From the NCBI GenBank assembly GCA_045592785.1, contig JAZNVL010000060.1, forward strand, positions 2,045-66,044: a stretch of DNA of 64,000 nucleotides, written 5' to 3'. Under the pieces are notes generated by a model. It did not search any database and had not been told where the DNA came from. It saw only the letters and a program-made list of their open reading frames with translations. The position numbers were made by a program, and so were the translations under genes. The first letter of the stretch is position 1; each line of letters starts with the position of its first letter. Source of the stretch: Victivallales bacterium (GTDB taxonomy: Bacteria; Verrucomicrobiota; Lentisphaeria; Victivallales; UBA1829). Positions 1 to 15,287 of the stretch are shown here, one piece after another.

Positions 1-41
1 AAGACATATCTGGTTATGGTATAAAAATCCCGGAAGTTGCA

Positions 42-1403
42 TTGCTGTTTGGTTCAATAAATAAAATGCCTAATATTTCTCCAATAGAAGGAATCGTTCA
101 ATATGGACCGTATTCATCTCCTGTTTTAACAGCATTAGAACGGAAAGGTATAAAACTCGGCATAGTAACCCCGAGTGGGGATGATGCTCAAAAGTTGTTT
201 CGTTTTTTGGGAAGAGCGAATGAAAGCATAAAAACAGAAAATGTGCGTGATTATATTTCAGATTTTCCAGGTTTTGAAAAAGCATTCAAAATTTCATTAG
301 ACATACCACAATGCAATTCTGATCGCTGCGAATATATTTCTGAGCATCTTTCTATAAAAGAACTCGCTGATGAAATTTGCCATGCGATTGATAGAATCAA
401 TAAGCGGGAAAGTCAAGATGTTATTTTGATTTATCTTCCTAAACGTTGGGGATTCCCTATTCGCGAAGAAAATGATCATGAATATTTTGACCTACACGAT
501 TTTGTAAAATCTTTCTGTGCACAAAAAGGGATAGTCACCCAATTTATTGCTGAAAAAACAACACCATTTAATACTCAGTCATGCAGAGTCTGGTGGTGGC
601 TTTCTTTGGCAATATATACGAAAGCAGGTTATACCCCGTGGGTTTTGAAGGCTATTGATAATAAATCTGCATTTGTCGGAATTGGATATGCTTATGCAAA
701 TAGAAAGGAATCTTCGCAAATCGTTATTGGTTGTAGTCATGTATACAATGAAATGGGAGAAGGCCTTAGTTTTCGCTTAAATCAGCTTGAAAATCCTTTT
801 TTCGACAAGCAAAAAAATCCTTATATGTCCAAAGATGATGCAAGACGTGTTGGGGAATCAATAATACAACTATTTTACGAGCAAAAAAATAAATTACCGA
901 AAAGAGTTGTTATTCACAAGCGTACTCCTTTTAAATCAGAAGAAATAGAAGGCTTGCTATTAGGATTAAGTAAAATTCCGACAGTAGATTTATTGGAAAT
1001 CAACATTGCCTCTCAAATGCGTTTTATTGCTTCTGAATTTAATTTTTTTGAACAGAAATTCAACTCTGAATATGGTTATCCTGTTGATCGAGGAACTATA
1101 TTACAGGATGGGGATTATGGGGCATATTTATGGATTCATGGTTGTGTACAATTTCCATTTGGAAAATATTATCAGGGGAAAAGACGAATCCCGGCCCCTA
1201 TATATATAAAACGACACTACGGAACAACAGACTTATCTACCATATGCGAAGAAATTTTGGGGTTGTCCAAGATGGATTTCAACAATATGGATCTTTACAG
1301 TAAAATGCCATGCACCATTAATACCGCCCAAAAAATCGCAGAAATAGGAGCATTGTTAAGCCATGTCTCCAACAGAAGTTACGATTACCGCCTTTTTATG
1401 TAA
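42..1403 (+). CDS. Prokaryotic Argonaute (MID-PIWI), predicted catalytically inactive; 5' end may lie outside the window
   Basis: Frame 3 has no stop from nt 3 to 42, so the ORF is open to the window edge. The track start is TTG; the first ATG is at 66. MID 5'-end pocket pattern: YFDLHDFVK...GIVTQFI..K. PIWI landmarks: YTKAGYTPWVL; AFVGIGYAY, where the usual GxDV Asp is Gly; VVIHKRTP, where the usual RDG is KRT. The C-terminus ends ...YDYRLFM. Confidence 0.85.
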   Translation: MLFGSINKMPNISPIEGIVQYGPYSSPVLTALERKGIKLGIVTPSGDDAQKLFRFLGRANESIKTENVRDYISDFPGFEKAFKISLDIPQCNSDRCEYISEHLSIKELADEICHAIDRINKRESQDVILIYLPKRWGFPIREENDHEYFDLHDFVKSFCAQKGIVTQFIAEKTTPFNTQSCRVWWWLSLAIYTKAGYTPWVLKAIDNKSAFVGIGYAYANRKESSQIVIGCSHVYNEMGEGLSFRLNQLENPFFDKQKNPYMSKDDARRVGESIIQLFYEQKNKLPKRVVIHKRTPFKSEEIEGLLLGLSKIPTVDLLEINIASQMRFIASEFNFFEQKFNSEYGYPVDRGTILQDGDYGAYLWIHGCVQFPFGKYYQGKRRIPAPIYIKRHYGTTDLSTICEEILGLSKMDFNNMDLYSKMPCTINTAQKIAEIGALLSHVSNRSYDYRLFM

Positions 1404-1463
1404 CCGCAAAAATCAAACACCTGAACCATAATTTTAATAACAATATTTGGTGGAGAAACTAAT

Positions 1464-2733
1464 ATGGTAGAAAAACAAATATTTCAAACATTTGTTACAG
1501 AAGTTATCATTCCATTTTTTTCTGGGACTAAAATCAATTCGGACAATGAGCCATTACCTTTGAGAAATAGAAGTAAGCTTGTAACTCAATGTCCACGTAA
1601 AGGGGCCAATTATCAAAAACTGATGCCATCAGAAAAAGCTGATTATTGCCTTTCGATCCAACGATCTTTACCTTTTTCGCATGATGAAATTTCTTTTCTT
1701 CAGCTATTTCTCAAGGCAGCAGAAGAAATAAATATATACAAAGATATGGATAAGGCGTATTTTCTAGATCGCATTAATTCATTAACTACTTTTACGATAG
1801 CTAAAACATTGGGATTCGAGAATATTTCATACCAAGTAATCTATAATATGATAAATTGGTCTCAACAAACATACGAAGGCCAAAATATCGCCATGTGTAT
1901 TGGAATAGATTCCTCATTGCCTCAAAATGGTAATTTATTTAATGTATCGTTTAATAACATTGTTGATGAAGACTTTTTAAAGGTGTTAAGTAATGGCTAT
2001 GACACAATGATTCAACTTGATGAAAATGGTATCTTTCACAATTTGACGTCATTAAAAGAAAATAATGATGAAAAGGTTTACGCCCCATTCCGTTTTTCTA
2101 AAGTTGCACGATGGACTGCTGGAAATCAGAATATTGCCTTTGTGTTAAACAGAAATGGAGAAATTTTGATTTTTAAGAATGGTGAGTTAACATTTGCTCG
2201 CCGCAATGGAAAATGGTTTTTTTACTCACATATGCAAGCAATAAAAAAAAATAGCGGAAGGTACTGGACGCAGTTTTCCTGCAGATACTCGTGAAGCAAT
2301 TTACTTAACGGCTTTAGATGTTGCATTTTCACGCACAGGAGGATGTATCGGTTTTGTCAAAAACAATAAAAAAAGCTTGTTTAATCAATCATCAATTTTA
2401 TTGGAAGAAAACAACTTTAATGCGTCAAAAATGGATGAAAAAACAAAAGTATTGTACTCAATTGTAGGTAAAAAGAAATTTTATGAAATTCCTCGATTAT
2501 TACGAATGGAATTAGCAGCTATTGATGGTGCAACTCTTATCTCTCGAGAAGAAAAGTTTATTTCCATCGGAGCTATTTTACGGTTACACGACAATGAAGT
2601 TTCCAGTACAGGGGGCGGACGAACTCTAGCCGCAATGTCTCTAGGAAAATTTGGATTGGGTATAAAAATTTCGAATGATGGTTATATAAAATTTTATACA
2701 GATTCATCAGACCCCATTTTGGAAATAAACTAA
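1464..2733 (+). pseudogene. pAgo-adjacent gene with a C-terminal DisA_N/diadenylate-cyclase-like region, split by a frameshift in an A9 run
   Basis: ORF 1464-2294 (frame 3) and ORF 2377-2733 (frame 1) fuse if one A is removed from the A9 run at 2243-2251. The fused reading is ...HMQAIKKIAEGTGRSFPADTREAIYLTALDVAFSRTGGCIGFVKNN..., about 422 aa. The C-terminal ~150 aa line up with my recollection of DAC-domain landmarks: GGCIGFV ~ GALIVI; AIDGATLI ~ HDGAVII; GGGRTLAA ~ GTRHRAA; GIKISNDGYIKFY ~ vivVSEetG.is. The gene starts 60 nt after the pAgo stop on the same strand. Confidence 0.55.
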
Positions 2734-2986
2734 TGCAACGTATACGAAAATTTAGACATTTTCTTGGAGTTTTGTTGAATTTTCGCTTTTTATTTGTAAA
2801 AGTCGCAAGTTGATATCTTTTTTCGGGGCATTTTACAGTAGTTTCGGAGAAAATGTCCTTTCGGTTGAGCTGAAAATTTTTCTCTGGTGCATAAAAAAGC
2901 AAAAACAGAGATATTTTCGCGAGTTGACGAAGCGATGGATAACGTCCGACAAATTGCGCACATTTTGAAAAACAGGACTTAAAAAA

Positions 2987-3244: not shown

Positions 3245-5293
3245 TTAATTTTTAACATAGGTAATACCAAAACTTTTGCAAGATCGATACTCCTGGAGAG
3301 AATTTTGCAACGCAAAAGTATTATTACCATCGTAGTTCTGGAAAATATCCAAGCCGCGCCCCAGAATTATTTTCCAACCGGTATCCGTGGTTATTTCCCG
3401 ATCATGAATGGTTTCATCAAATGTGTAACTGAAATGGATTCCAGCTGGCATTACCGATGTAGCAATCTGGTCAAAGAAGTCTATTTGTTTTTCAGAGCCG
3501 AAGTCATCTGCCACAGTAATGAGGTTAATGGTAATTTCTTCATCTGCAGCCTTTGTTTTGATTAATCCTTCAAACAGTTCCATAAGATTGCGGATTTGCC
3601 AGTAAGTACGCAGATACGGATCGACAATCGTTACTGTTCTTGCACCTTTGAGATGGGGAACCAGTAATTTTTCAAATGATACCCCTTTACAGTTTTCTTG
3701 AAAGGTCAAGTTACCTTCAAAAAGTTCTGCTGTTTCTGTGGATGTTACACTGACTTGCGTCAATACGGGTTGATTGGGGACATTGTTGTTCTGTCCACTG
3801 CATGTATCGTCTTCAATATCGTTTCCAGAGGAGTAATATTGTGGATATTCAGTTTCTTCCAACGTCTGTACCTTAAACGTTGTTCCCGCTTTGTCAAAAT
3901 ATTGAAATATCGGTTTTGAATAGGTATGGTCAAAACGCATGATCTGATCTTTTACCCGTTTTCTTCCTTCGACCGCAAATGACAATAATTGTGCTGTTTC
4001 TTCGGGAGTCGCATCATTATTCGGGAAAATGATTTTCATCAGACCGGACATCGTTTTCTGAACAGCATCTCTGTCGCGGGTTGAAATGGACGCATCAAGT
4101 GTAAAATACTTCTGATAATCGGCAGACCGGTCATCATCACGGAATGCTCTGAGAATTTCAGCCAGATAATCAACCACAAAACCGTACCCATCTGAAAACA
4201 TTTCGCCACGGATGATATCAACTTCCCATCCGGGAATGTAAAAGTGAATGCGGTCCAGAAATGCGGAGTCATGATATTCTTTGGGCAATTCATCAAATAA
4301 ATCTGAATTTTTAAGCATATACGGAACGCTGTGCTGCGTGTTGCCTACAAATATCATAGATGCTTCGGCACTCAATGTTTCCACGCCGCGAGAAAACGAT
4401 TTGTTTGCCATATAGTTTTTCATTATATCGACAAGACTCTTATTCGGCTTTTTCTGCTTCCCGGCAAATTCATCAAATGCGATGGCATCCCAATAGCCGA
4501 CCAGACCAAGTTTTCCATTGGAGTTATTTACAAATAATTTCGGAACGGTTACTTCTCCCCCGGATAACAAGATCCCGTGAGGTGAAAATTCCGAATAAAT
4601 GTGCGATTTACCAGTGCCTTTAGGGCCTAATTCAATCAGGTTGTAATTGCGCTCACAATAGGGAATAAGGCGCATTAACTGGAATAATTTATTGCGTGCA
4701 CCAAACATCTCCGGATTGAAACCCATACTTTGGATCAGCAGATCAATCCATTCCTCAGTCGAAAATTGTTTTCTTGATTCCAGATAAAGTTCCCGGTCGA
4801 AATAGGACAGCTGAATCGGCTTCAGTGATTCCAATACCCAGGGGCATTGCATTTTATCGTCAGAAGGCATATACTCCAATGCGGCTATACACCAAATGCC
4901 GTTAACCAATAATTTCGGATGACTTTTGATCGTCTCGGCTGGAACTAAGACCTTGCTGATTCCCAAGTTAGAAAAAGTTGCTTCGTAAACATCGGCTTTG
5001 TCATTCAGCGCAACACTGATTTTGTCAATGACTTTGTGTCTGCCTTTTTCCTTGATCGTAGACCGGATCAATCCTGCTTCATTCCGATGTACATAATGTT
5101 CCCGCAGAATGTTTTTGACAGATTCGATACCTGTTCGGATGGATTCTTCATCGCTCGTTGCGCAATATTGCCCAAGTAAATATTCAAGGACATACGTTGG
5201 CACAATGGCATTGCCTTTTACTTCCTTTACTAAATCTTTGCGAACTACAACGCCGGAAAAAGCGTTACAAATTTTTTTATCAAAGTCTGTCAT
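3245..5293 (-). CDS. brxL: BrxL-family AAA+ protein; C-terminal ~150 aa are MIT_C/PLD-like rather than a Lon protease domain
   Basis: The N-terminus MTDFDKKICNAFSGVVVRKDLVKEVKGNAIVPTYVLEYLLGQYCATSDEES closely matches the BrxL N-terminus as I recall it. Walker A is GPKGTGKSH. The C-terminus reads VTIVDPYLRTYWQIRNL...IHDREITTDTGWKIILGRGLDIF, and I saw no GxSxG/Ser-Lys Lon motif. Confidence 0.85.
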   Translation of the reverse strand: MTDFDKKICNAFSGVVVRKDLVKEVKGNAIVPTYVLEYLLGQYCATSDEESIRTGIESVKNILREHYVHRNEAGLIRSTIKEKGRHKVIDKISVALNDKADVYEATFSNLGISKVLVPAETIKSHPKLLVNGIWCIAALEYMPSDDKMQCPWVLESLKPIQLSYFDRELYLESRKQFSTEEWIDLLIQSMGFNPEMFGARNKLFQLMRLIPYCERNYNLIELGPKGTGKSHIYSEFSPHGILLSGGEVTVPKLFVNNSNGKLGLVGYWDAIAFDEFAGKQKKPNKSLVDIMKNYMANKSFSRGVETLSAEASMIFVGNTQHSVPYMLKNSDLFDELPKEYHDSAFLDRIHFYIPGWEVDIIRGEMFSDGYGFVVDYLAEILRAFRDDDRSADYQKYFTLDASISTRDRDAVQKTMSGLMKIIFPNNDATPEETAQLLSFAVEGRKRVKDQIMRFDHTYSKPIFQYFDKAGTTFKVQTLEETEYPQYYSSGNDIEDDTCSGQNNNVPNQPVLTQVSVTSTETAELFEGNLTFQENCKGVSFEKLLVPHLKGARTVTIVDPYLRTYWQIRNLMELFEGLIKTKAADEEITINLITVADDFGSEKQIDFFDQIATSVMPAGIHFSYTFDETIHDREITTDTGWKIILGRGLDIFQNYDGNNTFALQNSLQEYRSCKSFGITYVKN

Positions 5294-7817: not shown

Positions 7818-8837
7818 TTACCCCTGTCCTTCAGAAAGTTTTTTGATCACCTTATCAAAATCAGAAACAATGGGCTGTGTCCGATTGAATACATCATATT
7901 CCGCAGTCGCTTTGGCTTTTGCCTGTGACATGGAAATTTTACCTTTATCGCCATCCATAAGGATTTGATATTTGCGGAATGCCAGAAATTCATTGATACT
8001 TGCCGCAAATTCTTCCATTGTGAAGGTGTTTTCCCGTTCGATCAAATCTTCAATGTAATCAAAATAACCGGCGACTGTCCGTTCCAATTGACGGATTTCT
8101 TTTTCCTGTAAATAATTCTTGGCAATTGTCACATCTGTCTTCAGGATCCTGCCGTCCGGTGAATTCTTCCAGGTGACCAAACCCATGTGATCTTTATTCT
8201 TGTCGGCGTGAGTAAAAACGATTTCTGCGGCAGTCTGTCCTGTGATCGCAAAATGAAACTTGTTTTGCACCATGGCGTAAAAACTCCGGGTCAATTCCGA
8301 TTCCCTGTCATAATCAATGCTGCACTCCGCAAAAATATCGGTGATCTGCTGCCAGATGCGCCGTTCAGAGCTGCGGATGGAGCGGACTCGTTCCAGGAGT
8401 TCCCGGAAGTAATCTTTACCGAAAAGAGTTTTCCCCTGCTTGAGCCGTTCATCATCCATGGCAAAACCTTTGATCATATACTCTTTCAACACTCCGGTCG
8501 CCCAGATTCGGAACTGGGTGGCACGGCGGGAGTTGACCCGGTAGCCCACGGAAATGATTGCGTCAAGGTTATAATATTTCAGTTTGCGATTTACCTGCCG
8601 ATTGCCCTCCTGGCGAACTACCGAGATTTCCTCGGCAGTTGCATTTTCTGCCAATTCTCCATCTGCGTAAATGTTTTGCAGATGGAGAGATATATTGTCA
8701 GAAGTACAATCAAACAGTGTCGCCATTCCCTTTTGAGTCAGCCAAATGGTTTCATCTTTAACGGCGGCATCAATGCGGATATCTTCTTCCGGAGTACTGT
8801 ATATGATAAATTCAAGTCCATCAGGCATAATTTTCAC
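7818..8837 (-). CDS. RhuM-family (virulence protein RhuM / Fic-DOC-associated) protein embedded between pglX(C) and pglZ
   Basis: Typical RhuM family text: ...IWLTQKGMATLFDCTSDNISLHLQNIY...NLDAIISVGYRVNSRRATQFRIWAT.... The track start is GTG at 8837, overlapping the pglX(C) stop. An alternative ATG is at 8828. Confidence 0.75.
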   Translation of the reverse strand: MKIMPDGLEFIIYSTPEEDIRIDAAVKDETIWLTQKGMATLFDCTSDNISLHLQNIYADGELAENATAEEISVVRQEGNRQVNRKLKYYNLDAIISVGYRVNSRRATQFRIWATGVLKEYMIKGFAMDDERLKQGKTLFGKDYFRELLERVRSIRSSERRIWQQITDIFAECSIDYDRESELTRSFYAMVQNKFHFAITGQTAAEIVFTHADKNKDHMGLVTWKNSPDGRILKTDVTIAKNYLQEKEIRQLERTVAGYFDYIEDLIERENTFTMEEFAASINEFLAFRKYQILMDGDKGKISMSQAKAKATAEYDVFNRTQPIVSDFDKVIKKLSEGQG

Positions 8838-10828
8838 TCCTCCTTGGCTTCGAGACCGGGGATTTTTTTCAGGGCTGCGCCGAATTTACAATAGTTGACT
8901 TTTACGCCGTCGTCAAGGTCAATGGCGATCTTTTGCTGTGCCAGAGGGAAGATGACATCACGCTCGTAGTCTTCCAGTTCGGCGAGCTGAGCGGTGTATT
9001 TGTCGATCTGCTTCAAATTCCGGGTCTTATCGGCGTTGTTGATGTCGGTACGGTTGTTTTCTTCAATGAGGTGTTTGATGCGGGTGCTGATCTTGGTCAT
9101 CAACTCCCGGAGATATTCATTGAGAACGATGCTGACGGTATCAGGCGTGTAGCGGTGCAGATAGATCAGGGCATTGAAAGAACCTTTCGGAGAACTGAAA
9201 AGCCAGTAGATGGGGCGTTTTTTGTACCGTTGGATGTGTTCTTTGTAGAAATCCTTGACAAAGTATTTGCGGATATCTTTACCCAGCACCGCTTCAATAA
9301 AGTCCATATTGGCAGTGAGGTTTTCTTCTCCAAAGGTCAACGCAACAAAAGCTTTGAATTGAGTTACGATATCATCAAAGAACCATTCTTCATCCAGTAT
9401 CGGCAATATGCCATCCCGATCCATAATAAAGTGTTTATTCTCTCCGATAACGGGATAGAAAGAGGCATAAGACGATGTTAATTGCTGCTGTCCGTCATTC
9501 GCAGAAAATGAAACCATTGCTGGATCCTGCGAAAAAATATTTGAGCCAGTCACAGTTGTTTCATAGATAATCAGGTCTTCTTCCTGACCGTTGGATTGAT
9601 TGGCAAGGATCAAGCCTGATTTTTCAGGCGAGTATCTCCCCATCAAACAACCAACAGCGTAGGAGATGAATTCTTTGATCGTATCTGAAAGCAGCCTGTC
9701 TTCCAACTCTTTATTGTAAGGAAAATTCGCAGACAATACCGGATATGCTTCTGTGGTAGCAATACCATTGGAAGAACATTCGCAAATACTGTAAACATTG
9801 TCAATAACCTGCAACTGAGATTTTTCTCCTGTAACAGCTGAAATGTGCGAAATTGTAGATGTACTGGATTTATCAAGCGTTTTGCCATATCTGTACCACG
9901 GATTACAAGTCAATGTGATTTCATCCCAAGGCACGTCAGAAGTCAATTCATCCTGTAATCCATAAGCATCTATAAAAATGCGATTATTGCTCATTTCAAG
10001 CTGACGCATCTTTTCACAATCTTCAGTCCATTTTCTGCGGACTGAATCGTAAATACTCCAAATCGGAGTCTGTTTTACCCAACGGTCGCTATTATACTCT
10101 GCGATCAATGGATTTTTCTGAAAATCCCAAGAAGTTTCATAAGAATCCCAATTGTTTTTAGAAGATTTTACGCATTTTTCAGCATTACTTCCCGCGAAAT
10201 CAGCTACAGAGTCGCAAACAGGCAATCTTCCAACAACATCAGCACCAGTATTTATTGTTGGATTAATTGTTTCCAATGCGTAGTTAAATACTTTGGTGCT
10301 CATATAGGCAAGGTATTTCATCATTTCATTTGCATTATGTGGGAAAAGACTTGCTGCAGCATGATCAAATAAAAAACCTTTTCCATAATATCTGCAATGA
10401 AATTTTCCCGATGTAATAGCAGACCAACTTATTGCCGGACGGTAATATAAATCAATATATGTTGTCCTCGGGCGATGAAATAACGCAGATAGCCGCCATT
10501 TTATAATGTACTCGTTATCCCCATACCAACGTCTGAAATCGCCACCTTTTTTACAAGGGACATATTGTTTGTCTGATTTTTCAAACTCTTGGTTATTCGC
10601 AAAATTAAAAGCAATCTCTGAGCAATCGACCTCATACCAATAACGCATAAAGCGATCATTGTCTCCTGTCGATAATCCAGAACGGATTATTGCTAAATTT
10701 TCAAACTTTTTATTATTTGCAAAGCAATTTGTCAACTTTTCTGCCCAATACGCAATCGGGCTGCCGGGGATTTTCTTAAAATCCTCAGCAGACACGCGGA
10801 AAAAGTTTTTCGATTTATCTTTAGTCAT
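8834..10828 (-). CDS. pglX: PglX C-terminal half as a separate ORF
   Basis: Starts MTKDKSKNFFRVSAEDFKKIPGSPIAYW...GLSTGDNDRFMRYWYEV. In full-length PglX/Eco57I-like methyltransferases this segment directly follows the methyltransferase lobe. No methyltransferase motifs are present in this ORF. Its ATG overlaps the upstream stop (ATGA). Confidence 0.85.
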   Translation of the reverse strand: MTKDKSKNFFRVSAEDFKKIPGSPIAYWAEKLTNCFANNKKFENLAIIRSGLSTGDNDRFMRYWYEVDCSEIAFNFANNQEFEKSDKQYVPCKKGGDFRRWYGDNEYIIKWRLSALFHRPRTTYIDLYYRPAISWSAITSGKFHCRYYGKGFLFDHAAASLFPHNANEMMKYLAYMSTKVFNYALETINPTINTGADVVGRLPVCDSVADFAGSNAEKCVKSSKNNWDSYETSWDFQKNPLIAEYNSDRWVKQTPIWSIYDSVRRKWTEDCEKMRQLEMSNNRIFIDAYGLQDELTSDVPWDEITLTCNPWYRYGKTLDKSSTSTISHISAVTGEKSQLQVIDNVYSICECSSNGIATTEAYPVLSANFPYNKELEDRLLSDTIKEFISYAVGCLMGRYSPEKSGLILANQSNGQEEDLIIYETTVTGSNIFSQDPAMVSFSANDGQQQLTSSYASFYPVIGENKHFIMDRDGILPILDEEWFFDDIVTQFKAFVALTFGEENLTANMDFIEAVLGKDIRKYFVKDFYKEHIQRYKKRPIYWLFSSPKGSFNALIYLHRYTPDTVSIVLNEYLRELMTKISTRIKHLIEENNRTDINNADKTRNLKQIDKYTAQLAELEDYERDVIFPLAQQKIAIDLDDGVKVNYCKFGAALKKIPGLEAKEE
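10783..10828. repeat. Direct repeat copy 1 (functional 5' end of pglX(C))
   Basis: cctcagcagacacgcggaaaaagtttttcgatttatctttagtcat. On the minus strand it encodes MTKDKSKNFFRVSAE. Confidence 0.9.
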
Positions 10829-11853
10829 TTTAAATTACCCTCAGAAATATTTTTATTGATCCAAACAGGGGTATCTGAATACGTAATAGTTTGAGTCTCT
10901 CCATCTATGGATATGTTCTCTATTTCATGAAGAGATACTGAACTCGTATGGTTGCATTTGGAAATAATAGAAGCAACTTTTATCATGTCTGATAATGTGA
11001 TTTTTTTAGGTGGCATGATATCATATAAGTCTTTTCCTGCTCTTGTCAGACGATGCCCAGTTAAAACAATATCATACTTAGATACAATTTTTAAAACATA
11101 ACCTGTTCTGATAAAAAAGATGATATTATTTGAATTTTCAGCTTTTTTACATTGCCTTTCGGCTTTTTGAGGATTGATCAACTCCGCATCTTGTAAAGTC
11201 AAAATATCACTGAACGTACCAGTGGCAGGCTCATCTTCTGCGTTTGTCAACAAAAAGCCTTCACTAATACCAATATTCAATTTTTCAAATAATTGCGCTT
11301 CTTCCCGAGATAATTTCTTCGCCACTTCCAAGGTACGTGGCGAGATGGAATGCGGCTTTTTTGTTTCTTCAACCAACAAATGAGCCCACCATTGCCGCAA
11401 ATCATCATCGTCGATCAACTCAGCTTCAGCCCGCCAGCGATTGAAAAAGGTTTGGTTTATAGGATCTGAAGATATGTTTTCTTCCGGAATTTGTTTTATT
11501 TCAACGCCTGCCGTAAAAATTGCAGCAGCCAAACGTTTTGCTTTCAATATGGAATCTACATTTACAATTTCCCGGCAAAGCATGTCAATACTTGACACTT
11601 CTGGCAAAGAAATCATTTTTTTTGCCGCAATATCGTACCTTGAGATGCCATCTTTAATTTCAGAAGCATCCCTTTCTGCTTGTGCTTCAATTCGTTTAGC
11701 TTCTCCGATCCTTTTTTCAACCAAAGGACCATAAGCTGCATAAAGGATTTTTCCAAATCCCTTATGCGTATCTTTGGTCATCTCGGTAATATCTTCCGCA
11801 GGCTTAGTCAAATCAGCATTGATATCTATTTTAACAGGCGAAATATCACACAT
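10825..11853 (-). CDS. Abi-alpha / DUF2806-DUF4393-like protein (candidate abortive-infection component)
   Basis: The central segment FFNRWRAEAELIDDDDLRQWWAHLLVEETKKPHSISPRTLEVAKKLSREEAQLFEKL matches the pattern I recall for these families (...W..f...a..vsd..mq.lWa.iLa.E...p.s.S.rTl..l..Ls..eA.lF..l). The gene is AT-rich and is flanked by the 46-bp direct repeat. Confidence 0.55.
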   Translation of the reverse strand: MCDISPVKIDINADLTKPAEDITEMTKDTHKGFGKILYAAYGPLVEKRIGEAKRIEAQAERDASEIKDGISRYDIAAKKMISLPEVSSIDMLCREIVNVDSILKAKRLAAAIFTAGVEIKQIPEENISSDPINQTFFNRWRAEAELIDDDDLRQWWAHLLVEETKKPHSISPRTLEVAKKLSREEAQLFEKLNIGISEGFLLTNAEDEPATGTFSDILTLQDAELINPQKAERQCKKAENSNNIIFFIRTGYVLKIVSKYDIVLTGHRLTRAGKDLYDIMPPKKITLSDMIKVASIISKCNHTSSVSLHEIENISIDGETQTITYSDTPVWINKNISEGNLK

Positions 11854-11905
11854 TTTTAGCCTCCGCCGACACCCGGAAAAAGTTTTTCGATTTATCTGTG
11901 GTCAT
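11846..11905 (-). other. 19-codon relic ORF (MTTDKSKNFFRVSAEAKNV*) bridging the 343-aa gene and the Abi-alpha-like gene
   Basis: Its ATG overlaps the upstream stop (ATGA at 11902-11905). Its TGA (11846-11848) lies 3 nt inside the next gene, whose ATG is at 11851-11853. The relic therefore preserves translational coupling. Confidence 0.6.
11860..11905. repeat. Direct repeat copy 2 (orphan duplicate of the pglX(C) 5' end)
   Basis: cctccgccgacacccggaaaaagtttttcgatttatctgtggtcat. 41 of 46 nt are identical to copy 1. On the minus strand it encodes MTTDKSKNFFRVSAE. Confidence 0.9.
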
Positions 11906-12933
11906 TGTTGTTCCTCGCGAATTTCAACATTGTATGCGACTCCGAATTTCGGAGGTTCATTATTAACTTCCTTTTTCTCAACGAGCGGTTCCCATTCAAA
12001 TATACTTTGCTGCCACATTACATCCGGAGCTGAAATTTTATTCTCGCTTATCCATAATGCAACATCCCTATAAATCAAATGTGAAATTCTAGAGGCCTTT
12101 GATAATATTTGTAATATTATCCCATTGAGTGAAAAGAGAATGAAAGGAAGCTTGTCTTTATTCAAGTATATTTCATTAACTTTTTTTCGCAATTCATCTT
12201 TTTTAATATTTTGAGGACCATGCAAAATAAGAGTTCCGTATTGAAAAATTTCTATAAGTTCTTTGTTCGTTGTTGCAAAATTTTGTGTAATTGATTGATT
12301 TGGAGCTTCCTGTAAAAAATCATTTATCTCCCGCACCTTATTCTTTAAAAAATCTTGCTTTTCAGAATTTGATGAATGTTTCTTAAATATATTGACTGCA
12401 TTTTTTATCATATTGTCATGATCGTCTATCAGTTGCCGAATATATAACAAGGCAAAAGCGGTCAGTTCTAATGATGGGAAATCACCGCGAGCCAAACCGT
12501 CTCCATTCATATTGTACTGAAGTATCGGTTTGTTTTTGTACCATGAACTATTTTGAATAACTTGTACAAGTTGGATAAAATGTGCAATGATATCAGATTC
12601 CTGTTGCGTCATATCTTTTCCAGTAGCATCTTGCTTATATGGATTGTTTAGATTATATATGTACTCCTCCATAGTAATCATTCTTTCCATATATCCGTCT
12701 TCATAGCAACGAAAAAGCTGCCCATTTTTATCTTTCAAAATAATACAATGCATTGCTTCACAATAAGAAATCAACGAATCCGGAGAACCATTTTCATCAT
12801 ATAACACTGCAAATTCATATCCATCTGGAATAGTAAATTTTTCTTGCATTAAGGTTTTCCATGTATCAATGCGTTCGCAACTGTTATCATTTTGCTTTTT
12901 ATATTCCTCTTCAGAAGATATATTGATATTCAT
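11902..12933 (-). CDS. Hypothetical protein, 343 aa, no domain recognised
   Basis: Long AT-rich ORF with 4-nt overlaps to neighbours on both sides. I recognise no motif. Confidence 0.6.
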   Translation of the reverse strand: MNINISSEEEYKKQNDNSCERIDTWKTLMQEKFTIPDGYEFAVLYDENGSPDSLISYCEAMHCIILKDKNGQLFRCYEDGYMERMITMEEYIYNLNNPYKQDATGKDMTQQESDIIAHFIQLVQVIQNSSWYKNKPILQYNMNGDGLARGDFPSLELTAFALLYIRQLIDDHDNMIKNAVNIFKKHSSNSEKQDFLKNKVREINDFLQEAPNQSITQNFATTNKELIEIFQYGTLILHGPQNIKKDELRKKVNEIYLNKDKLPFILFSLNGIILQILSKASRISHLIYRDVALWISENKISAPDVMWQQSIFEWEPLVEKKEVNNEPPKFGVAYNVEIREEQQ

Positions 12934-14228
12934 TTTCTATTCCCCTGCTCTTTACCTGATGATAAAAAGTTCTTCCTTAAGGCGATTTCTAATTCTTCGA
13001 TTTGCTTTTTCAAAGCAGCAATTTCAGCATAAAGTTTTTGTTTTTCCAGTGCGAATCCAGCAGTGGCAGCATTATATTTCTTTTCCAATCCGGAAAGAGT
13101 ATCCTGTGCTTTTTTCAAATCTGCCTGCAAGCGGTTTGTTTTCTGCATAAGTTTTACATCATCTTGTGAAACTATGGTACCTTTTTCTAATGCGACTTTC
13201 ACATTACTTGATTTTTCTATATGAATTTTAGGGGAACAAAAAGATTTGTTTTGCAAAATTTCAATAATTTTTTCATGGTTATCGGTACAATAATCAAAAA
13301 TTGCAAGTCCAATTTGTACAATAACACCAACAAAGGCAATACCAATCGCAACATATGACAAATTCGTATTTTTCTTGGCGTCAACTTTAGATGCTTTAAA
13401 ATTATTTTGAGATGCGGTAAGTAACTCATTTACCGTATTGCCATTTTTTTCTGCAGTTCTTACTTGTTCCGCAATTTTGTCATTGTTTTCTTTAGCTTTA
13501 TCTACCAATTTTTCAATATTTTTCTGCGTCAATTGAGACGCATTGAGCAACTTACCTGCATTTTCATCAAATTTAGCTAAAAACATAGACAATGTAGCAT
13601 TAATATCAGAAGTGTCTTGCTGTATCTTAGAAAAAGCAATCTCATCCGCCTTTAGTTCCGTTTTTTTCCGTAATTCACGAAAAGCTTCTTGTTCTTCCGG
13701 TTCATTCTTCTTTATTTTTTCTGCAGTTTCTTTCAATTCCTTCAAATCATGCCGGAGAACATTGTCTTCTTCATTTTCTTCTACAGAACTTGAATTGGAA
13801 AACTCTTGTTCAGCATTGATGGCCTCTTGAATATTCTTTTGATAATCTATAACCGTACTAGACAATGCGGCGTTGCATAATGCATCTCCCATTCTTTTGT
13901 ATGCAGCTATCGTCTCTTGCATCACATGGGGAGCTGCAAGAACTTTATTTACTTGTTGTTGAATTTTAGAATAATTTTGAAACAACTTTTGACGGATTTC
14001 ACTATCAACGGCACTAAGCAAGTTACAAGAGTTTTTTAATTTTTCATTCAAGCTGATTACTGCTTTTATTGCCTCTGGATTCCTTATTTGTTCCAACTTG
14101 GCTTGCATATTAGTTTTTTCACGGTAAAGGTTATGCAATGGATTATTATTGATTTTAAGGCTAGTCATACTTTTTTTATTCTCTTTTTGAGAAGAGGATT
14201 CTGTGTTTTTTTTATTTTCTTCACTCAT
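12930..14228 (-). CDS. Membrane-anchored coiled-coil protein, 432 aa
   Basis: One hydrophobic helix (LSYVAIGIAFVGVIVQIGLAIF), flanked by long K/E/Q-rich heptad-like stretches, e.g. the C-terminal LQADLKKAQDTLSGLEKKYN...AEIAALKKQIEELEIAL. A GGAAG lies upstream of the ATG. Confidence 0.6.
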   Translation of the reverse strand: MSEENKKNTESSSQKENKKSMTSLKINNNPLHNLYREKTNMQAKLEQIRNPEAIKAVISLNEKLKNSCNLLSAVDSEIRQKLFQNYSKIQQQVNKVLAAPHVMQETIAAYKRMGDALCNAALSSTVIDYQKNIQEAINAEQEFSNSSSVEENEEDNVLRHDLKELKETAEKIKKNEPEEQEAFRELRKKTELKADEIAFSKIQQDTSDINATLSMFLAKFDENAGKLLNASQLTQKNIEKLVDKAKENNDKIAEQVRTAEKNGNTVNELLTASQNNFKASKVDAKKNTNLSYVAIGIAFVGVIVQIGLAIFDYCTDNHEKIIEILQNKSFCSPKIHIEKSSNVKVALEKGTIVSQDDVKLMQKTNRLQADLKKAQDTLSGLEKKYNAATAGFALEKQKLYAEIAALKKQIEELEIALRKNFLSSGKEQGNRK

Positions 14229-14243
14229 TGTGTTGCTTCCTGA

Positions 14244-15287
14244 TTATGATTTTTTTATGACAGCGGTCTCTTTTGCTAACTCGGTTTCCAATTGCTCAAT
14301 TGATGGAAGAGATGATTTCAGATTTTCTGGAATAGATCGGGTCAATTCGTACTCTGAAATCCCGATTGGTTTATGAATATCCTGCAACGCATATTCTGCA
14401 ACAACTTTGTCTTTTGTCTTACAGAGTAAAAGTCCTATTGTCGGAGCATCCTGTTCACTCTTCAATTGACGATCAACTGCTGTTACATAAAAACTCAGTT
14501 GCCCGATATGCTCAGGCTTGAATGCCGCTGTTTTTAATTCAATAACAATGTAACAATGTAATTTGATATGATAGAACAGTAAATCTACATAAAAGTCTTG
14601 CTCTCCAACTTCTAAATGTACCTGTTTTCCTACAAAAGCAAAACCATCCCCCAATTCCAACAGAAAATTTGTTACATGTTGAACCAGAGCATGTTCAATA
14701 TCCCGTTCCTGAGCTTCCTGTCCTAATCCGAGAAAATCAAGTTTATATGGATCTTTCAAACACTCTATTGCCAAATCCGATTGTGGCGCAGGTAAGGTCA
14801 TAGAAAAATTGTTGGCTGCCTGTCCGATCCTTTTTGCCGTATCAAGTTCAATGTGGTGAACCATTGCATTGCGCGACCAACCATTTTTTACAGCAAGGCT
14901 CGCATATACAAGACGTTCTGATTTTTTAGAAAGTTTATCAAGTAAAGTTACCTGGTGATACCATGGCAATTGTCCAAGCGGCTCTTGGACAATTTCTGCT
15001 TCCGTCCAAGCCGCAGCAAATCCTCTCATATACATGAGGTTCGCCCGCGAAAAACCTTTCATTTCCGGAAAGGCGGTCCGCAAATCGTCTGCAAGGCGTG
15101 TAATTACTTTTGCGCCCCATCCTTGCATCTTTTGCCGTTCTAAAATTTCATGTCCAATTTGCCAATACAAACGGATAAGTTCAAGATTTACCGCTCGGGC
15201 TGCCTGTAGTTGAGTATTGGCAATTCGCTGTTTTAAATCGGATAACCATTGACTGTAATCTGAACTGATAAAATTAAAATCTTTCAT
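14244..15287 (-). CDS. DUF1016 / YhcG-like PDDEXK nuclease
   Basis: Family-typical N-terminus: ...LKQRIANTQLQAARAVNLELIRLYWQIGHEI. PD-(D/E)xK core: FYVDLLFYHIKLHCYIVIELK. Its ATG overlaps the pglX(N) stop. Confidence 0.8.
   Translation of the reverse strand: MKDFNFISSDYSQWLSDLKQRIANTQLQAARAVNLELIRLYWQIGHEILERQKMQGWGAKVITRLADDLRTAFPEMKGFSRANLMYMRGFAAAWTEAEIVQEPLGQLPWYHQVTLLDKLSKKSERLVYASLAVKNGWSRNAMVHHIELDTAKRIGQAANNFSMTLPAPQSDLAIECLKDPYKLDFLGLGQEAQERDIEHALVQHVTNFLLELGDGFAFVGKQVHLEVGEQDFYVDLLFYHIKLHCYIVIELKTAAFKPEHIGQLSFYVTAVDRQLKSEQDAPTIGLLLCKTKDKVVAEYALQDIHKPIGISEYELTRSIPENLKSSLPSIEQLETELAKETAVIKKS

What the first reader, a model, noticed from the sequence alone, without database searches (positions are those of the whole stretch)
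1..2733. Dead Argonaute paired with a downstream DAC-like (DisA_N-type) protein instead of a known SIR2/TIR/nuclease/membrane partner
- The PIWI domain lacks the catalytic residues (GIGYAY for GxDV, KRT for RDG). Inactive pAgos of this kind are known to work through an associated effector.
- The only gene co-oriented and tightly linked inside the window (60-nt gap) is a ~422-aa protein.
- Its C-terminal ~150 aa follow the order of diadenylate-cyclase landmarks: G-rich strand, DGA, a G..R..AA helix, and a final V/I-S-x-x-G strand. DGA is kept but the RHR motif is not (GRT instead).
- Its N-terminal ~260 aa are unassigned and could be an APAZ-type adaptor.
- I know of no described pAgo system whose partner has a cyclic-dinucleotide-synthase-like fold. 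If real, it would suggest a pAgo that signals through or binds a nucleotide, or a new effector class.
- Caveat: the pAgo ORF is open at the window edge, so a conventional APAZ-effector could sit upstream or be fused.
Basis: partly seen in the sequence, partly recalled or inferred. Interest (0 to 1): 0.8.

Follow-up and report, generated by a model that had tools for sequence, protein, structure and literature searches.

The report
Argonaute next to unrelated tandem-DAC gene
The inactive Argonaute at the window edge almost certainly carries its own fused SIR2 effector, and the gene after it is an independent, mobile, uncharacterised protein with two diadenylate-cyclase-like folds that occurs in many defence islands, prophages and restriction-modification operons without an Argonaute.

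Summary
The sequence description is correct. An inactive MID-PIWI Argonaute ends at nt 1403. Sixty nt later a co-oriented ~422-aa gene starts (1464-2733). It is broken by one extra A in an A9 run (2243-2251).

The DAC-fold call holds. Pfam DAC gives a sub-threshold hit, and all top 50 PDB fold matches are DisA/CdaA/DacA-type cyclases. D355, G356, G385 and R387 are invariant or nearly so in 188 family members.

The pairing with the Argonaute does not hold.
- A metagenome contig 97.8% identical over window 1-1402 shows the Argonaute as a 1037-aa fused SIR2-APAZ-MID-PIWI protein, a known self-contained type.
- In that contig the identity stops at the stop codon and an unrelated gene follows.
- A second contig keeps the DAC-like gene intact. 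It sits behind a TIR protein and a 160-nt Argonaute relic.
- No other locus of the DAC-like family examined has an Argonaute nearby.

New here: the "unassigned" N-terminal 262 aa are not APAZ. They also fold like a DAC domain, so the protein looks like a tandem pseudo-DAC plus DAC. The family has about 600 clusters at E <= 1e-30. It sits in defence islands and a prophage, and twice inside restriction-modification operons. Its function is untested.

The parts
1..1403 (+). C-terminal 466 codons (MID + inactive PIWI) of a short prokaryotic Argonaute. Its 98%-identical counterpart is a 1037-aa fused SIR2-APAZ-MID-PIWI protein. The ORF is cut by the window edge.
   Evidence: The ORF is open from nt 3. 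PADLOC PDLC02384 matches model positions 567-1030 of 1030 at E = 1.5e-172. L023 is 97.8% identical over window 1-1402 and encodes the full 1037-aa ORF with a SIR2_2 domain.
1242..1403 (+). Last ~53 codons of the pAgo gene. This segment is shared with both L023 and L007. In L007 it survives as a relic behind a TIR-domain gene.
   Evidence: blastn and the DNA alignment show that window 1242-2822 matches L007 2646-4221 at 98%.
1404..1463 (+). 60-nt spacer with a GGAG ribosome-binding site 8 nt before the ATG. No terminator-like site is present.
   Evidence: Sequence; promoter/terminator scan.
1464..2733 (+). Gene for a ~422-aa tandem pseudo-DAC/DAC protein, frameshifted in this window.
   Evidence: P0001 is 97% identical and an intact 422 aa. 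The structure model has pLDDT 92 and pTM 0.92.
1464..2249 (+). N-terminal 262 residues: a small alpha/beta subdomain (about residues 1-95) followed by a degenerate DAC-like fold (about residues 100-262). Conserved motifs are TYEG, SNG-DT, AP-R and LNRNGEIL. The subdomain limits are inferred from secondary structure.
   Evidence: A model of residues 1-262 alone has pLDDT 92.8. Its top 50 Foldseek PDB hits are CdaA/DacA/DacM/CdaM-type cyclases plus one structural-genomics entry (2fb5), with a best E of 7e-5. hhalign finds no similarity to APAZ. hhalign also finds no sequence-level repeat signal against the C-terminal domain.
2243..2251 (+). A9 homopolymer. It has one A more than the A8 of the intact alleles, which shifts the frame and gives a stop at 2292-2294.
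   Evidence: Alignment of the window with L007 and L008.
2269..2733 (+). C-terminal DAC domain, read in the +1 frame after the A-run. It contains DGA at 2524-2532, G-G-R at 2614-2622 and K-I-S-N-D-G at 2665-2682.
   Evidence: Pfam DAC matches residues 346-394 to profile positions 46-93. All top 50 Foldseek hits are DAC-type structures. Conservation in 188 members is.

Best explanation
Two independent defence-island genes sit side by side.

(a) The Argonaute. It is the C-terminal half of a single-polypeptide SIR2-APAZ-MID-PIWI protein, the fused short-pAgo type known as clade S1A or SPARSA-like. From established knowledge of that family, guide-directed target recognition by the inactive MID-PIWI module activates the fused SIR2 NADase and depletes NAD+. 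It therefore needs no separate effector.

(b) The downstream gene. It belongs to a separate, horizontally mobile, single-gene family of ~420-aa cytoplasmic proteins. Each has a small N-terminal alpha/beta subdomain, a degenerate DAC-like domain and a C-terminal DAC domain. The C-terminal domain keeps the universally conserved DAC active-site residues.

Inferred and not shown: the C-terminal domain still binds ATP or another NTP and probably makes a cyclic dinucleotide. The pseudo-DAC and N-terminal parts would act as the sensor or regulator. This would parallel the DACNG-DACNH-DAC proteins (CdaG/DS-2C) of CBASS-DAC systems.

The family's recurrent placement in defence islands, in a prophage, and between the subunit genes of type I and type III-like restriction-modification operons suggests an anti-phage or guard-type role.

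In this window the gene carries a +1 A insertion. It is either inactivated or mis-sequenced in a homopolymer. Its position next to the pAgo reflects mosaic shuffling of the island, not a functional pair.
For: Shown for the pAgo:
- L023 is 97.8% identical to window 1-1402 and encodes a 1037-aa ORF. It covers the whole fused PADLOC model (1060 bits) and has a SIR2_2 domain.
- The window fragment scores 574 bits on that fused model, against 380 bits on the stand-alone short-pAgo model.
- Its closest database relatives are 700-815-aa APAZ-MID-PIWI proteins or SIR2-containing proteins.

Shown for independence of the two genes:
- In L023 the identity to the window ends at the pAgo stop and an unrelated ORF follows.
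- L007 keeps an intact DAC-like gene behind an 824-aa TIR protein and a 160-nt pAgo relic.
- No pAgo was found by tblastn in L001-L016. No PIWI-family product appears among the called genes of the later loci.

Shown for the contexts of the family:
- Inside a type I RM operon, between two hsdM genes, with overlapping ORFs (L017, L020).
- Between a Mod-like methyltransferase and a ResIII protein, with an ORF overlap on the Mod side and a short gap on the Res side (L029, L030).
- In a prophage (L025-L028).
- Next to GmrSD, a Schlafen/AlbA_2 protein, AbiJ-AAA_21, a NACHT protein, NYN, AAA_15, Mrr, HipA, IS elements and integrases.

Shown for the fold and the active site:
- In 188 members, D355, G356 and R387 are kept in 188/188, G385 in 187/188, and K402, S404, D406 and G407 in at least 185/188.
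- D, G, G and R are the four residues reported as fully conserved across all bacterial DACs (10.64898/2026.08.10.743972).
- The D-to-R spacing of 32 residues equals that of CdaA D171-R203 (recalled from memory).

Precedents: DAC proteins act in anti-phage defence (PMC13069673; 10.64898/2026.08.10.743927). DACNH is described as a degenerate DAC-like domain.

The region at 1-2000 has 34% GC, against about 50-54% for the part of the window beyond ~26 kb.
Against: - The window itself does not show the SIR2-APAZ part. That rests on a 98%-identical contig.
- No terminator separates the two genes, so co-transcription here is possible.
- The L007 relic shows that the pAgo-then-DAC order existed in more than one strain.
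- The DAC-like family has no conserved effector neighbour, which is odd for a signalling synthase.
- The H and the second R of the RHR motif are lost. Position 388 is variable and position 389 is A in 172/188 members. Canonical c-di-AMP synthesis is therefore not assured.
- The Pfam hit is below the gathering score (19.4 against 27 bits). A profile search of PDB sequences finds no DAC.
- PADLOC, NCBIfam and PHROGs have no model for the family. None was found in IMG/VR.
- The Gimesia locus has no obvious defence genes nearby.
- Defence-island association was judged from about 14 lineages only, not tested statistically.
Confidence: 0.8

Rival explanations
1. The DAC-like protein is the dedicated effector or signalling partner of the dead pAgo. 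Its N-terminal half acts as an APAZ-like adaptor.
For: - The genes are co-oriented with a 60-nt gap and no terminator between them.
- The same gene order must once have existed in the L007 lineage, as shown by the pAgo relic.
- The DAC fold is real.
Against: - The pAgo has a fused SIR2 effector in its 98%-identical counterpart.
- That counterpart has a different downstream gene, starting right after the stop codon.
- L024, L021 and L022 lack the gene.
- About 13 other lineages of the family have no pAgo nearby.
- The N-terminal region is not APAZ.
- The gene is intact where the pAgo is lost (L007) and broken where the pAgo is present (the window).
Confidence: 0.04
2. A guard or accessory module. 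The tandem-DAC protein is not autonomous. It monitors neighbouring defence systems (restriction-modification, BREX, pAgo) and signals when phage anti-defence proteins disable them. This would resemble PrrC embedded in a type I RM operon, or the decoy-signal logic of Panoptes/Panoptoo.
For: - The gene is embedded in two unrelated RM operon types, with ORF overlaps.
- In the window it lies between a pAgo and a BREX system.
- DAC enzymes are known to guard against immune evasion in Panoptoo/PanDA.
Against: - Most loci have no RM gene directly adjacent.
- No receptor or effector for a signal has been identified.
- The PrrC analogy comes from memory, not from a test made here.
Confidence: 0.2
3. 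A non-defence role. The family is a divergent housekeeping or element-borne c-di-AMP synthase, or a nucleotide-binding pseudo-enzyme. Its defence-island neighbours merely reflect that it travels on mobile DNA.
For: - The Gimesia maris locus lies among porin, mechanosensitive-channel and hydrolase genes.
- No defence library contains the family.
- RHR is reduced to R-x-A.
Against: - The distribution is patchy across phyla, with low GC in this window.
- The gene repeatedly sits next to defence and mobile-element genes.
- The putative active-site residues are under strict conservation.
Confidence: 0.15
4. In this window the gene is simply a dead pseudogene, so nothing functional is encoded at 1464-2733.
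For: The window has A9 where two 98%-identical contigs have A8, which truncates the product at 276 aa.
Against: - Single-base homopolymer errors are common assembly artefacts.
- The rest of the gene differs from the intact alleles by only ~2% and has no other stop.
- Slippage in an A8/A9 run could also act as an on/off switch.
Confidence: 0.4

Closest known systems
Fused SIR2-APAZ-pAgo short Argonautes (clade S1A of Ryazansky et al. 2018; SPARSA-type, for example the Paraburkholderia graminis Sir2-Ago studied by Zaremba et al. 2022; names recalled from memory)
   Same: - MID plus catalytically dead PIWI.
- Full-length coverage of the 1030-position PADLOC model of the fusion by the 98%-identical L023 protein.
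- A SIR2_2 domain at the N-terminus.
   Different: Only 40-48% identical to the nearest database relatives. NADase activity and guide/target preference are untested. The SIR2-APAZ part lies outside the window.
CdaG / DS-2C proteins of CBASS-DAC systems (DACNG-DACNH-DAC, ~550-575 aa; PMC13069673; bioRxiv 10.64898/2026.08.10.743927 and 10.64898/2026.08.10.743972)
   Same: - Defence-island-associated.
- Multi-domain, with a C-terminal DAC domain preceded by a degenerate DAC-like domain and a further N-terminal domain.
- The D-G and G-x-R residues are kept.
   Different: - About 420 aa, with no C-terminal helix bundle.
- No Pfam hit other than DAC at E <= 1.
- Never seen next to a CD-NTase, a patatin or a 2TM-beta effector in the loci examined.
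- The H and the second R of RHR are lost.
PanS minimal DACs of Panoptoo/PanDA (about 150 aa, with a PanE S2TM-beta effector)
   Same: A DAC fold used outside housekeeping c-di-AMP signalling. The same four invariant residues are kept.
   Different: Three domains instead of one. There is no adjacent PanE-like membrane effector. No evidence exists for constitutive decoy signalling.
Canonical diadenylate cyclases CdaA/DacA and DisA
   Same: - These are the best structural matches for both halves of the protein.
- DGA is kept, along with the first arginine of RHR and a Ser-x-acidic motif on the last strand.
   Different: - 11-20% identity.
- No transmembrane or DNA-binding modules.
- RHR is reduced to R-x-A.
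- The Pfam score is below the gathering threshold.
- The two DAC-like folds lie in one chain, whereas the known enzymes form the active site between two chains.
Abortive-infection genes embedded in restriction-modification operons (PrrC in the prr type I locus, RloC; recalled from memory)
   Same: The gene is inserted between RM subunit genes with tight ORF coupling.
   Different: No sequence or fold relationship. Functional coupling to RM is untested.

Membership tests
Short pAgo, fused SIR2-APAZ-pAgo type (S1A) | MID and PIWI domains without N/PAZ, and PIWI catalytic residues lost | tested here: met
   PADLOC class I short-pAgo models match end to end (residues 7-465 against positions 8-459 of 460). 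GIGYAY and HKRT replace the GxDV and RDG aspartates.
Short pAgo, fused SIR2-APAZ-pAgo type (S1A) | SIR2 and APAZ domains in the same polypeptide, N-terminal to MID | tested here: inconclusive
   This part lies outside the window. It is met in L023, which is 97.8% identical to window 1-1402: a 1037-aa ORF with SIR2_2 at residues 136-236, covering PDLC02384 positions 4-1030 of 1030. The source genome itself was not recoverable.
Short pAgo, fused SIR2-APAZ-pAgo type (S1A) | Guide-dependent NAD+ depletion | not testable with these tools
   Needs a biochemical assay.
pAgo-associated effector partner (APAZ-containing operon partner) | An APAZ domain in the partner | tested here: not met
   hhalign of the N-terminal profile against the APAZ region of L023 gives probability 0.09%. 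The top Foldseek hits are all DAC-type structures.
pAgo-associated effector partner (APAZ-containing operon partner) | Conserved gene neighbourhood with pAgo | tested here: not met
   The gene is absent downstream of pAgo in L023, L024, L021 and L022. pAgo is absent from about 13 other lineages of the family.
DAC / DisA_N domain (PF02457) | DAC alpha/beta fold | tested here: met
   The model has pLDDT 92. The top 50 Foldseek PDB hits are DisA/CdaA/DacA/CdaM/DacM-type structures plus one structural-genomics entry, with E as low as 8.5e-5 and TM-score up to 0.58 on the target.
DAC / DisA_N domain (PF02457) | Pfam gathering score | tested here: not met
   19.4 bits against a cut-off of 27 for the window protein. 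Twenty of 66 members reach E <= 0.01, the best at 3e-7.
DAC / DisA_N domain (PF02457) | Universally conserved D-G and G-x-R residues | tested here: met
   D355 188/188, G356 188/188, G385 187/188 and R387 188/188. These are compared with EcPanS D68, G69, G103 and R105, reported as fully conserved in all DACs. The equivalence is inferred from motif order, the Pfam match range and the 32-residue spacing.
DAC / DisA_N domain (PF02457) | Complete RHR motif | tested here: not met
   The motif reads R-T-L in the window. In the family, position 388 is variable and position 389 is Ala in 172/188 members.
DAC / DisA_N domain (PF02457) | Cyclic dinucleotide synthesis | not testable with these tools
   Needs an enzyme assay.
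CdaG / DS-2C (CBASS-DAC) | DACNG and DACNH N-terminal domains | tested here: inconclusive
   No Pfam family other than DAC matches at E <= 1 or at E <= 0.01 in 66 members. I could not confirm that DACNG/DACNH models are in the Pfam copy used. A degenerate DAC-like fold is present, as reported for DACNH.
CdaG / DS-2C (CBASS-DAC) | Operon with a CD-NTase and a nucleotide-activated effector | tested here: not met
   None of the loci examined has such neighbours.
Panoptoo / PanDA (PanS-PanE) | A minimal ~150-aa DAC with an adjacent S2TM-beta effector | tested here: not met
   The protein is ~420 aa with three parts. No Pfam-recognisable effector or membrane-protein gene is conserved next to it in the loci examined, though some adjacent ORFs have no family assignment.

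The most novel reading that the evidence does not exclude
The ~420-aa tandem pseudo-DAC/DAC family would be a third, so far undescribed class of defence-associated DAC proteins. It has about 600 clusters at 50% identity with E <= 1e-30. In this reading it is a single-gene or guard-type module. An N-terminal sensor plus a pseudo-DAC domain would control a C-terminal DAC domain with a remodelled RHR motif. The product would be c-di-AMP or a non-canonical nucleotide. The protein would act either through the host's own c-di-AMP targets or as a sentinel for restriction-modification and other neighbouring systems.
Probability: 0.3. Interest if true: 0.65.

Novelty: new variant of a known kind. Interest (0 to 1): 0.42.

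Why it matters
As posed, the finding would have been a new class of Argonaute effector. It is not: the Argonaute is an ordinary self-contained SIR2-APAZ-pAgo.

What remains of interest is the neighbouring gene. DAC domains were linked to anti-phage defence only in 2025-2026, in two forms: CBASS-DAC/CdaG and the minimal PanS.

A third architecture would extend that picture. It is widespread but rare. It has two DAC-like folds in one chain and strictly conserved catalytic-site residues. It is repeatedly embedded in restriction-modification operons.

Such a protein would also offer a natural pseudo-dimer for studying how DAC active sites are regulated or made asymmetric.

The three-way mosaic of the window, L023 and L007 is a clean example of defence-island cassette swapping, with breakpoints at or inside a gene's 3' end.

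Tried and rejected
- **Genome scan with the family alignment.** The search for related loci on genome contigs first failed because the 66-sequence alignment had no stretch conserved enough. It then returned only 6 loci.
- **Profile and single-sequence searches of PDB sequences.** Searches with the whole family, the C-terminal domain alone and two single members found no DAC chain. Residue equivalences to CdaA/DisA therefore rest on motif order, the Pfam match range and spacing, not on a printed alignment.
- **Internal repeat test.** hhalign of the middle domain against the C-terminal domain gave no signal, probability 2.3%. The tandem-DAC claim therefore rests on fold search only.
- **Recovering the source contig.** An exact BrxL look-up found nothing.
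- **Viral contigs.** IMG/VR scans with the family alignment and with the prophage variant P0043 found nothing.
- **Libraries without a model.** NCBIfam, PHROGs and PADLOC have no model for the family.
- **Galperin's 2023 DAC-architecture survey.** The paper (J Bacteriol 205:e00023-23) is not held. I could not check whether this architecture is one of its 22 families.
- **APAZ rejected.** APAZ identity of the N-terminus is rejected.
- **Programmed frameshift rejected.** The intact alleles simply have one A fewer.


Full report
**1. What is in the sequence**

An ORF in frame 3 is open at the window edge and ends at the stop codon 1401-1403. Its 466 visible residues match PADLOC pAgo models. The best match is PDLC02384, a 1030-position model, over positions 567-1030 (E = 1.5e-172, 574 bits). 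It also matches stand-alone class I short-pAgo models end to end. Pfam sees a weak Piwi hit.

The PIWI active-site positions read GIGYAY and HKRT.

Sixty nucleotides downstream, after a GGAG, an ATG at 1464 opens a co-oriented gene. No terminator-like site intervenes. The gene is split into 1464-2294 and a +1-frame continuation to 2733.

The cause of the split is an A9 run at 2243-2251. Two contigs that are 98% identical (L007, L008) have A8 and encode an intact 422-aa protein, P0001.

Beyond 2733 the minus strand carries a type 1 BREX operon: BrxL, PglZ, PglX, BrxC, BrxB and BrxA. Nucleotides 1-2000 have 34% GC, against about 50-54% beyond ~26 kb. The region therefore looks like a horizontally acquired defence island.

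**2. The Argonaute is a self-contained SIR2-APAZ-pAgo**

A scan of metagenome contigs with the pAgo fragment found L023. It is 97.8% identical at the DNA level to window 1-1402. L023 extends 1.9 kb further upstream.

It shows one continuous 1037-aa ORF. That ORF covers the whole fused PADLOC model (positions 4-1030 of 1030, 1060 bits) and the Aga_SIR2-PNTD1-PNTD2 model. It has a Pfam SIR2_2 domain at residues 136-236.

The more distant relatives (40-48% identity) agree with this.
- On long contigs they are 700-815-aa proteins that match the fused model from about position 230-330 onward, so they carry APAZ plus MID plus PIWI.
- One of them (P0164) carries SIR2_2 itself.
- Another (L021) has a SIR2_2 ORF directly upstream.

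From established knowledge of this family (Ryazansky 2018; Zaremba 2022; Garb 2022; cited from memory), target recognition by the dead MID-PIWI module switches on the SIR2 NADase. No separate effector is needed.

**3. The downstream gene is not a pAgo partner**

Three lines of evidence argue against a partnership.

(i) In L023 the identity to the window stops at the pAgo stop codon. What follows is an unrelated 321-aa ORF with no Pfam or PADLOC hit. tblastn with P0001 finds nothing in L023. L024 (83% identical pAgo, human gut) and the distant relatives L021 and L022 also lack the gene.

(ii) L007 is 98% identical to window 1242-2822. It keeps the DAC-like gene intact, together with the last ~160 nt of the pAgo gene. 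Upstream of that breakpoint it has an 824-aa TIR-domain protein instead of the pAgo. The gene is thus intact where the pAgo has been lost, and broken where the pAgo is present.

(iii) The gene belongs to a real family.
- 70 homologues were found by word-seeded search.
- An exhaustive profile search of 1.84 billion cluster representatives found 599 at E <= 1e-30 and 1267 at E <= 1e-10. Nearly all of the best 150 listed hits are about 390-455 aa with one matched stretch.
- I examined about 14 independent lineages. Only the window lineage has a pAgo.

The other contexts are as follows.
- Inside a type I RM operon, between two hsdM paralogues, with overlapping ORFs (L017 Desulfolutivibrio, L020).
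- Between a 1065-aa Mod-like methyltransferase and a 1045-aa ResIII protein on an integrative element. The ORFs overlap on the Mod side, and the gap on the Res side is short (L029, L030).
- In the accessory region of a prophage (L025-L028).
- Beside IS elements or integrases, two GmrSD genes, a Schlafen/AlbA_2 protein, an AbiJ-AAA_21 protein, a 1557-aa NACHT protein, a NYN protein, AAA_15 ATPases, Mrr and HipA.
- The Gimesia maris locus shows no obvious defence neighbours.

The picture is a mobile, stand-alone gene typical of defence islands, with no fixed partner.

**4. What the protein is**

An AlphaFold2 model built on 66 family members is confident (pLDDT 92, pTM 0.92). Foldseek against the PDB returns only diadenylate cyclases in its top 50: DisA, CdaA, DacA, CdaM and DacM, plus one Bacillus cereus structural-genomics entry. 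E-values go down to 8.5e-5 and TM-scores on the target reach 0.58. Pfam DAC matches residues 346-394 at E = 8e-4, below the gathering score. It matches 20 of the 66 members at E <= 0.01, with a best value of 3e-7.

| Position | Conservation in 188 members |
|---|---|
| D355 | 188/188 |
| G356 | 188/188 |
| A357 | 177/188 |
| G385 | 187/188 |
| R387 | 188/188 |
| K402, S404, D406, G407 | at least 185/188 each |
| 388 (His-equivalent) | variable |
| 389 (second-Arg-equivalent) | Ala in 172/188 |

A 2026 preprint reports that across all curated bacterial DACs only four residues are fully conserved: D, G, G and R, which are D68, G69, G103 and R105 in EcPanS (10.64898/2026.08.10.743972). These correspond to the D-G and G-x-R kept here.

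That equivalence is my inference. It rests on motif order, the Pfam match range and a D-to-R spacing of 32 residues, the same as D171-R203 in Listeria CdaA (recalled from memory). Strong purifying selection on these positions argues for retained nucleotide binding and probably catalysis. The product cannot be predicted.

Their top 50 PDB matches are again CdaA/DacA/DacM/CdaM-type cyclases plus the same structural-genomics entry. The best E-value is 7e-5, and TM-scores on the target are 0.4-0.5. This model contains none of the C-terminal domain.

There is no similarity to the APAZ region of L023 (hhalign probability 0.09%). There is also no sequence-level repeat signal between the two halves (probability 2.3%).

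I therefore read the protein as three parts.
- A small alpha/beta subdomain, about residues 1-95.
- A degenerate DAC-like domain, about residues 100-262. Its own invariant residues are Y137, E138, G139, P208, L228, R247 and W251, and it has no DGA.
- A C-terminal DAC domain.

There is a precedent. CdaG/DS-2C proteins of CBASS-DAC systems are DACNG-DACNH-DAC, and DACNH is described as very distantly DAC-related but without catalytic residues.

**5. How it probably works**

Shown: the fold, the conserved site, the mobility, the defence, mobile-element and RM contexts, and the lack of a fixed partner.

Inferred (my estimate 35-45%): the C-terminal domain is a regulated nucleotide cyclase or synthase. 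The pseudo-DAC and N-terminal parts would hold it off until an infection cue arrives. Because canonical DACs form their active site between two DAC domains, a pseudo-DAC in the same chain could either block that face or create an asymmetric site.

The absence of a neighbouring effector has three possible explanations.
- The protein acts through the host's own c-di-AMP targets.
- It acts through a receptor encoded elsewhere.
- It acts as a sentinel for adjacent systems. Its tight embedding in two unrelated RM operon types recalls PrrC in type I loci (from memory) and the guard logic of Panoptoo/PanDA.

None of this has been tested.

**6. Comparison with what is known, and novelty**

The pAgo is a new member of a known kind. 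The claimed new pAgo-effector pairing is not real.

The DAC-like family is absent from PADLOC, NCBIfam and PHROGs. It does not match the two defence-associated DAC classes described in 2025-2026: the ~550-575-aa CdaG/DS-2C proteins in CBASS operons and the ~150-aa PanS proteins with a membrane effector.

I could not read Galperin's 2023 survey of 22 DAC architectures. I therefore cannot exclude that this architecture is listed there. I rate it as a new variant of a known kind, with moderate interest.

**7. Verdict**

The DAC-fold interpretation is confirmed and extended to a tandem arrangement. The Argonaute-partner interpretation is refuted. Confidence in the independence of the two genes is 0.8.

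Noticed in passing
window 8834-17221 (minus strand): The BREX methyltransferase PglX is split into two ORFs exactly at model position 619/620. ORF 15284-17221 matches PDLC02521 positions 1-619, and ORF 8834-10828 matches positions 620-1173. A 4.4-kb cassette of four genes lies between them, with 4-nt start/stop overlaps at both ends. The cassette holds a YhcG/DUF1016 PDDEXK nuclease (PDC-S02), two unknown genes and a DUF2806/Abi_alpha protein. This could be a split PglX with embedded cargo, or an insertion that inactivated it.
   Followed up: partly
window 3245-5293 (minus strand): The BrxL homologue has the BrxL_N and BrxL ATPase domains. Its C-terminal 145 residues match Pfam MIT_C, a phospholipase D-like domain, at E = 7e-40. 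No Lon-protease-like family was reported for that region.
   Followed up: no
window 7818-8837 (minus strand): A RhuM-family gene (PADLOC candidate PDC-S05) is inserted between the PglX C-terminal half and PglZ of the BREX operon.
   Followed up: no
window 1-25000 versus 26000-64000: The first ~25 kb (pAgo, DAC-like gene, BREX and inserted cargo) has 33-47% GC, against about 50-55% for most of the remainder of the window. This indicates a horizontally acquired defence island. The lowest values are at 1-2000 (34%) and 12001-14000 (33%).
   Followed up: partly
L007 82-2864: In a strain 98% identical across the DAC-like gene, an 824-aa protein with an N-terminal TIR_2 domain occupies the place of the pAgo. 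A 160-nt relic of the pAgo 3' end is left in the intergenic region, so one cassette replaced another with a breakpoint inside the gene.
   Followed up: yes
L017 6484-14926; L020 6497-17217; L029 3807-11454: Members of the DAC-like family are embedded in two RM operon types, with 4-11-nt ORF overlaps at the upstream junction and gaps of 8-11 nt downstream. One is a type I operon (hsdM, the DAC-like gene, hsdM, hsdS, hsdR). The other is type III-like (Mod-like methyltransferase, the DAC-like gene, ResIII protein). The type I operon in L017 lies next to prophage structural genes. The type III-like operon lies on an integrative element with an integrase and a primase.
   Followed up: partly
L025-L028 (P0043, 349 aa): A shorter variant of the family, which lacks about 75 N-terminal residues, sits in the accessory region of a prophage between the repressor/integrase module and the lysis genes. 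It was seen on 20 contigs. No relative was found in IMG/VR.
   Followed up: partly
L023 3383-4348: The gene that follows the 98%-identical SIR2-APAZ-pAgo in L023 encodes a 321-aa protein with no Pfam or PADLOC hit. It is another unknown occupant of the same slot.
   Followed up: no
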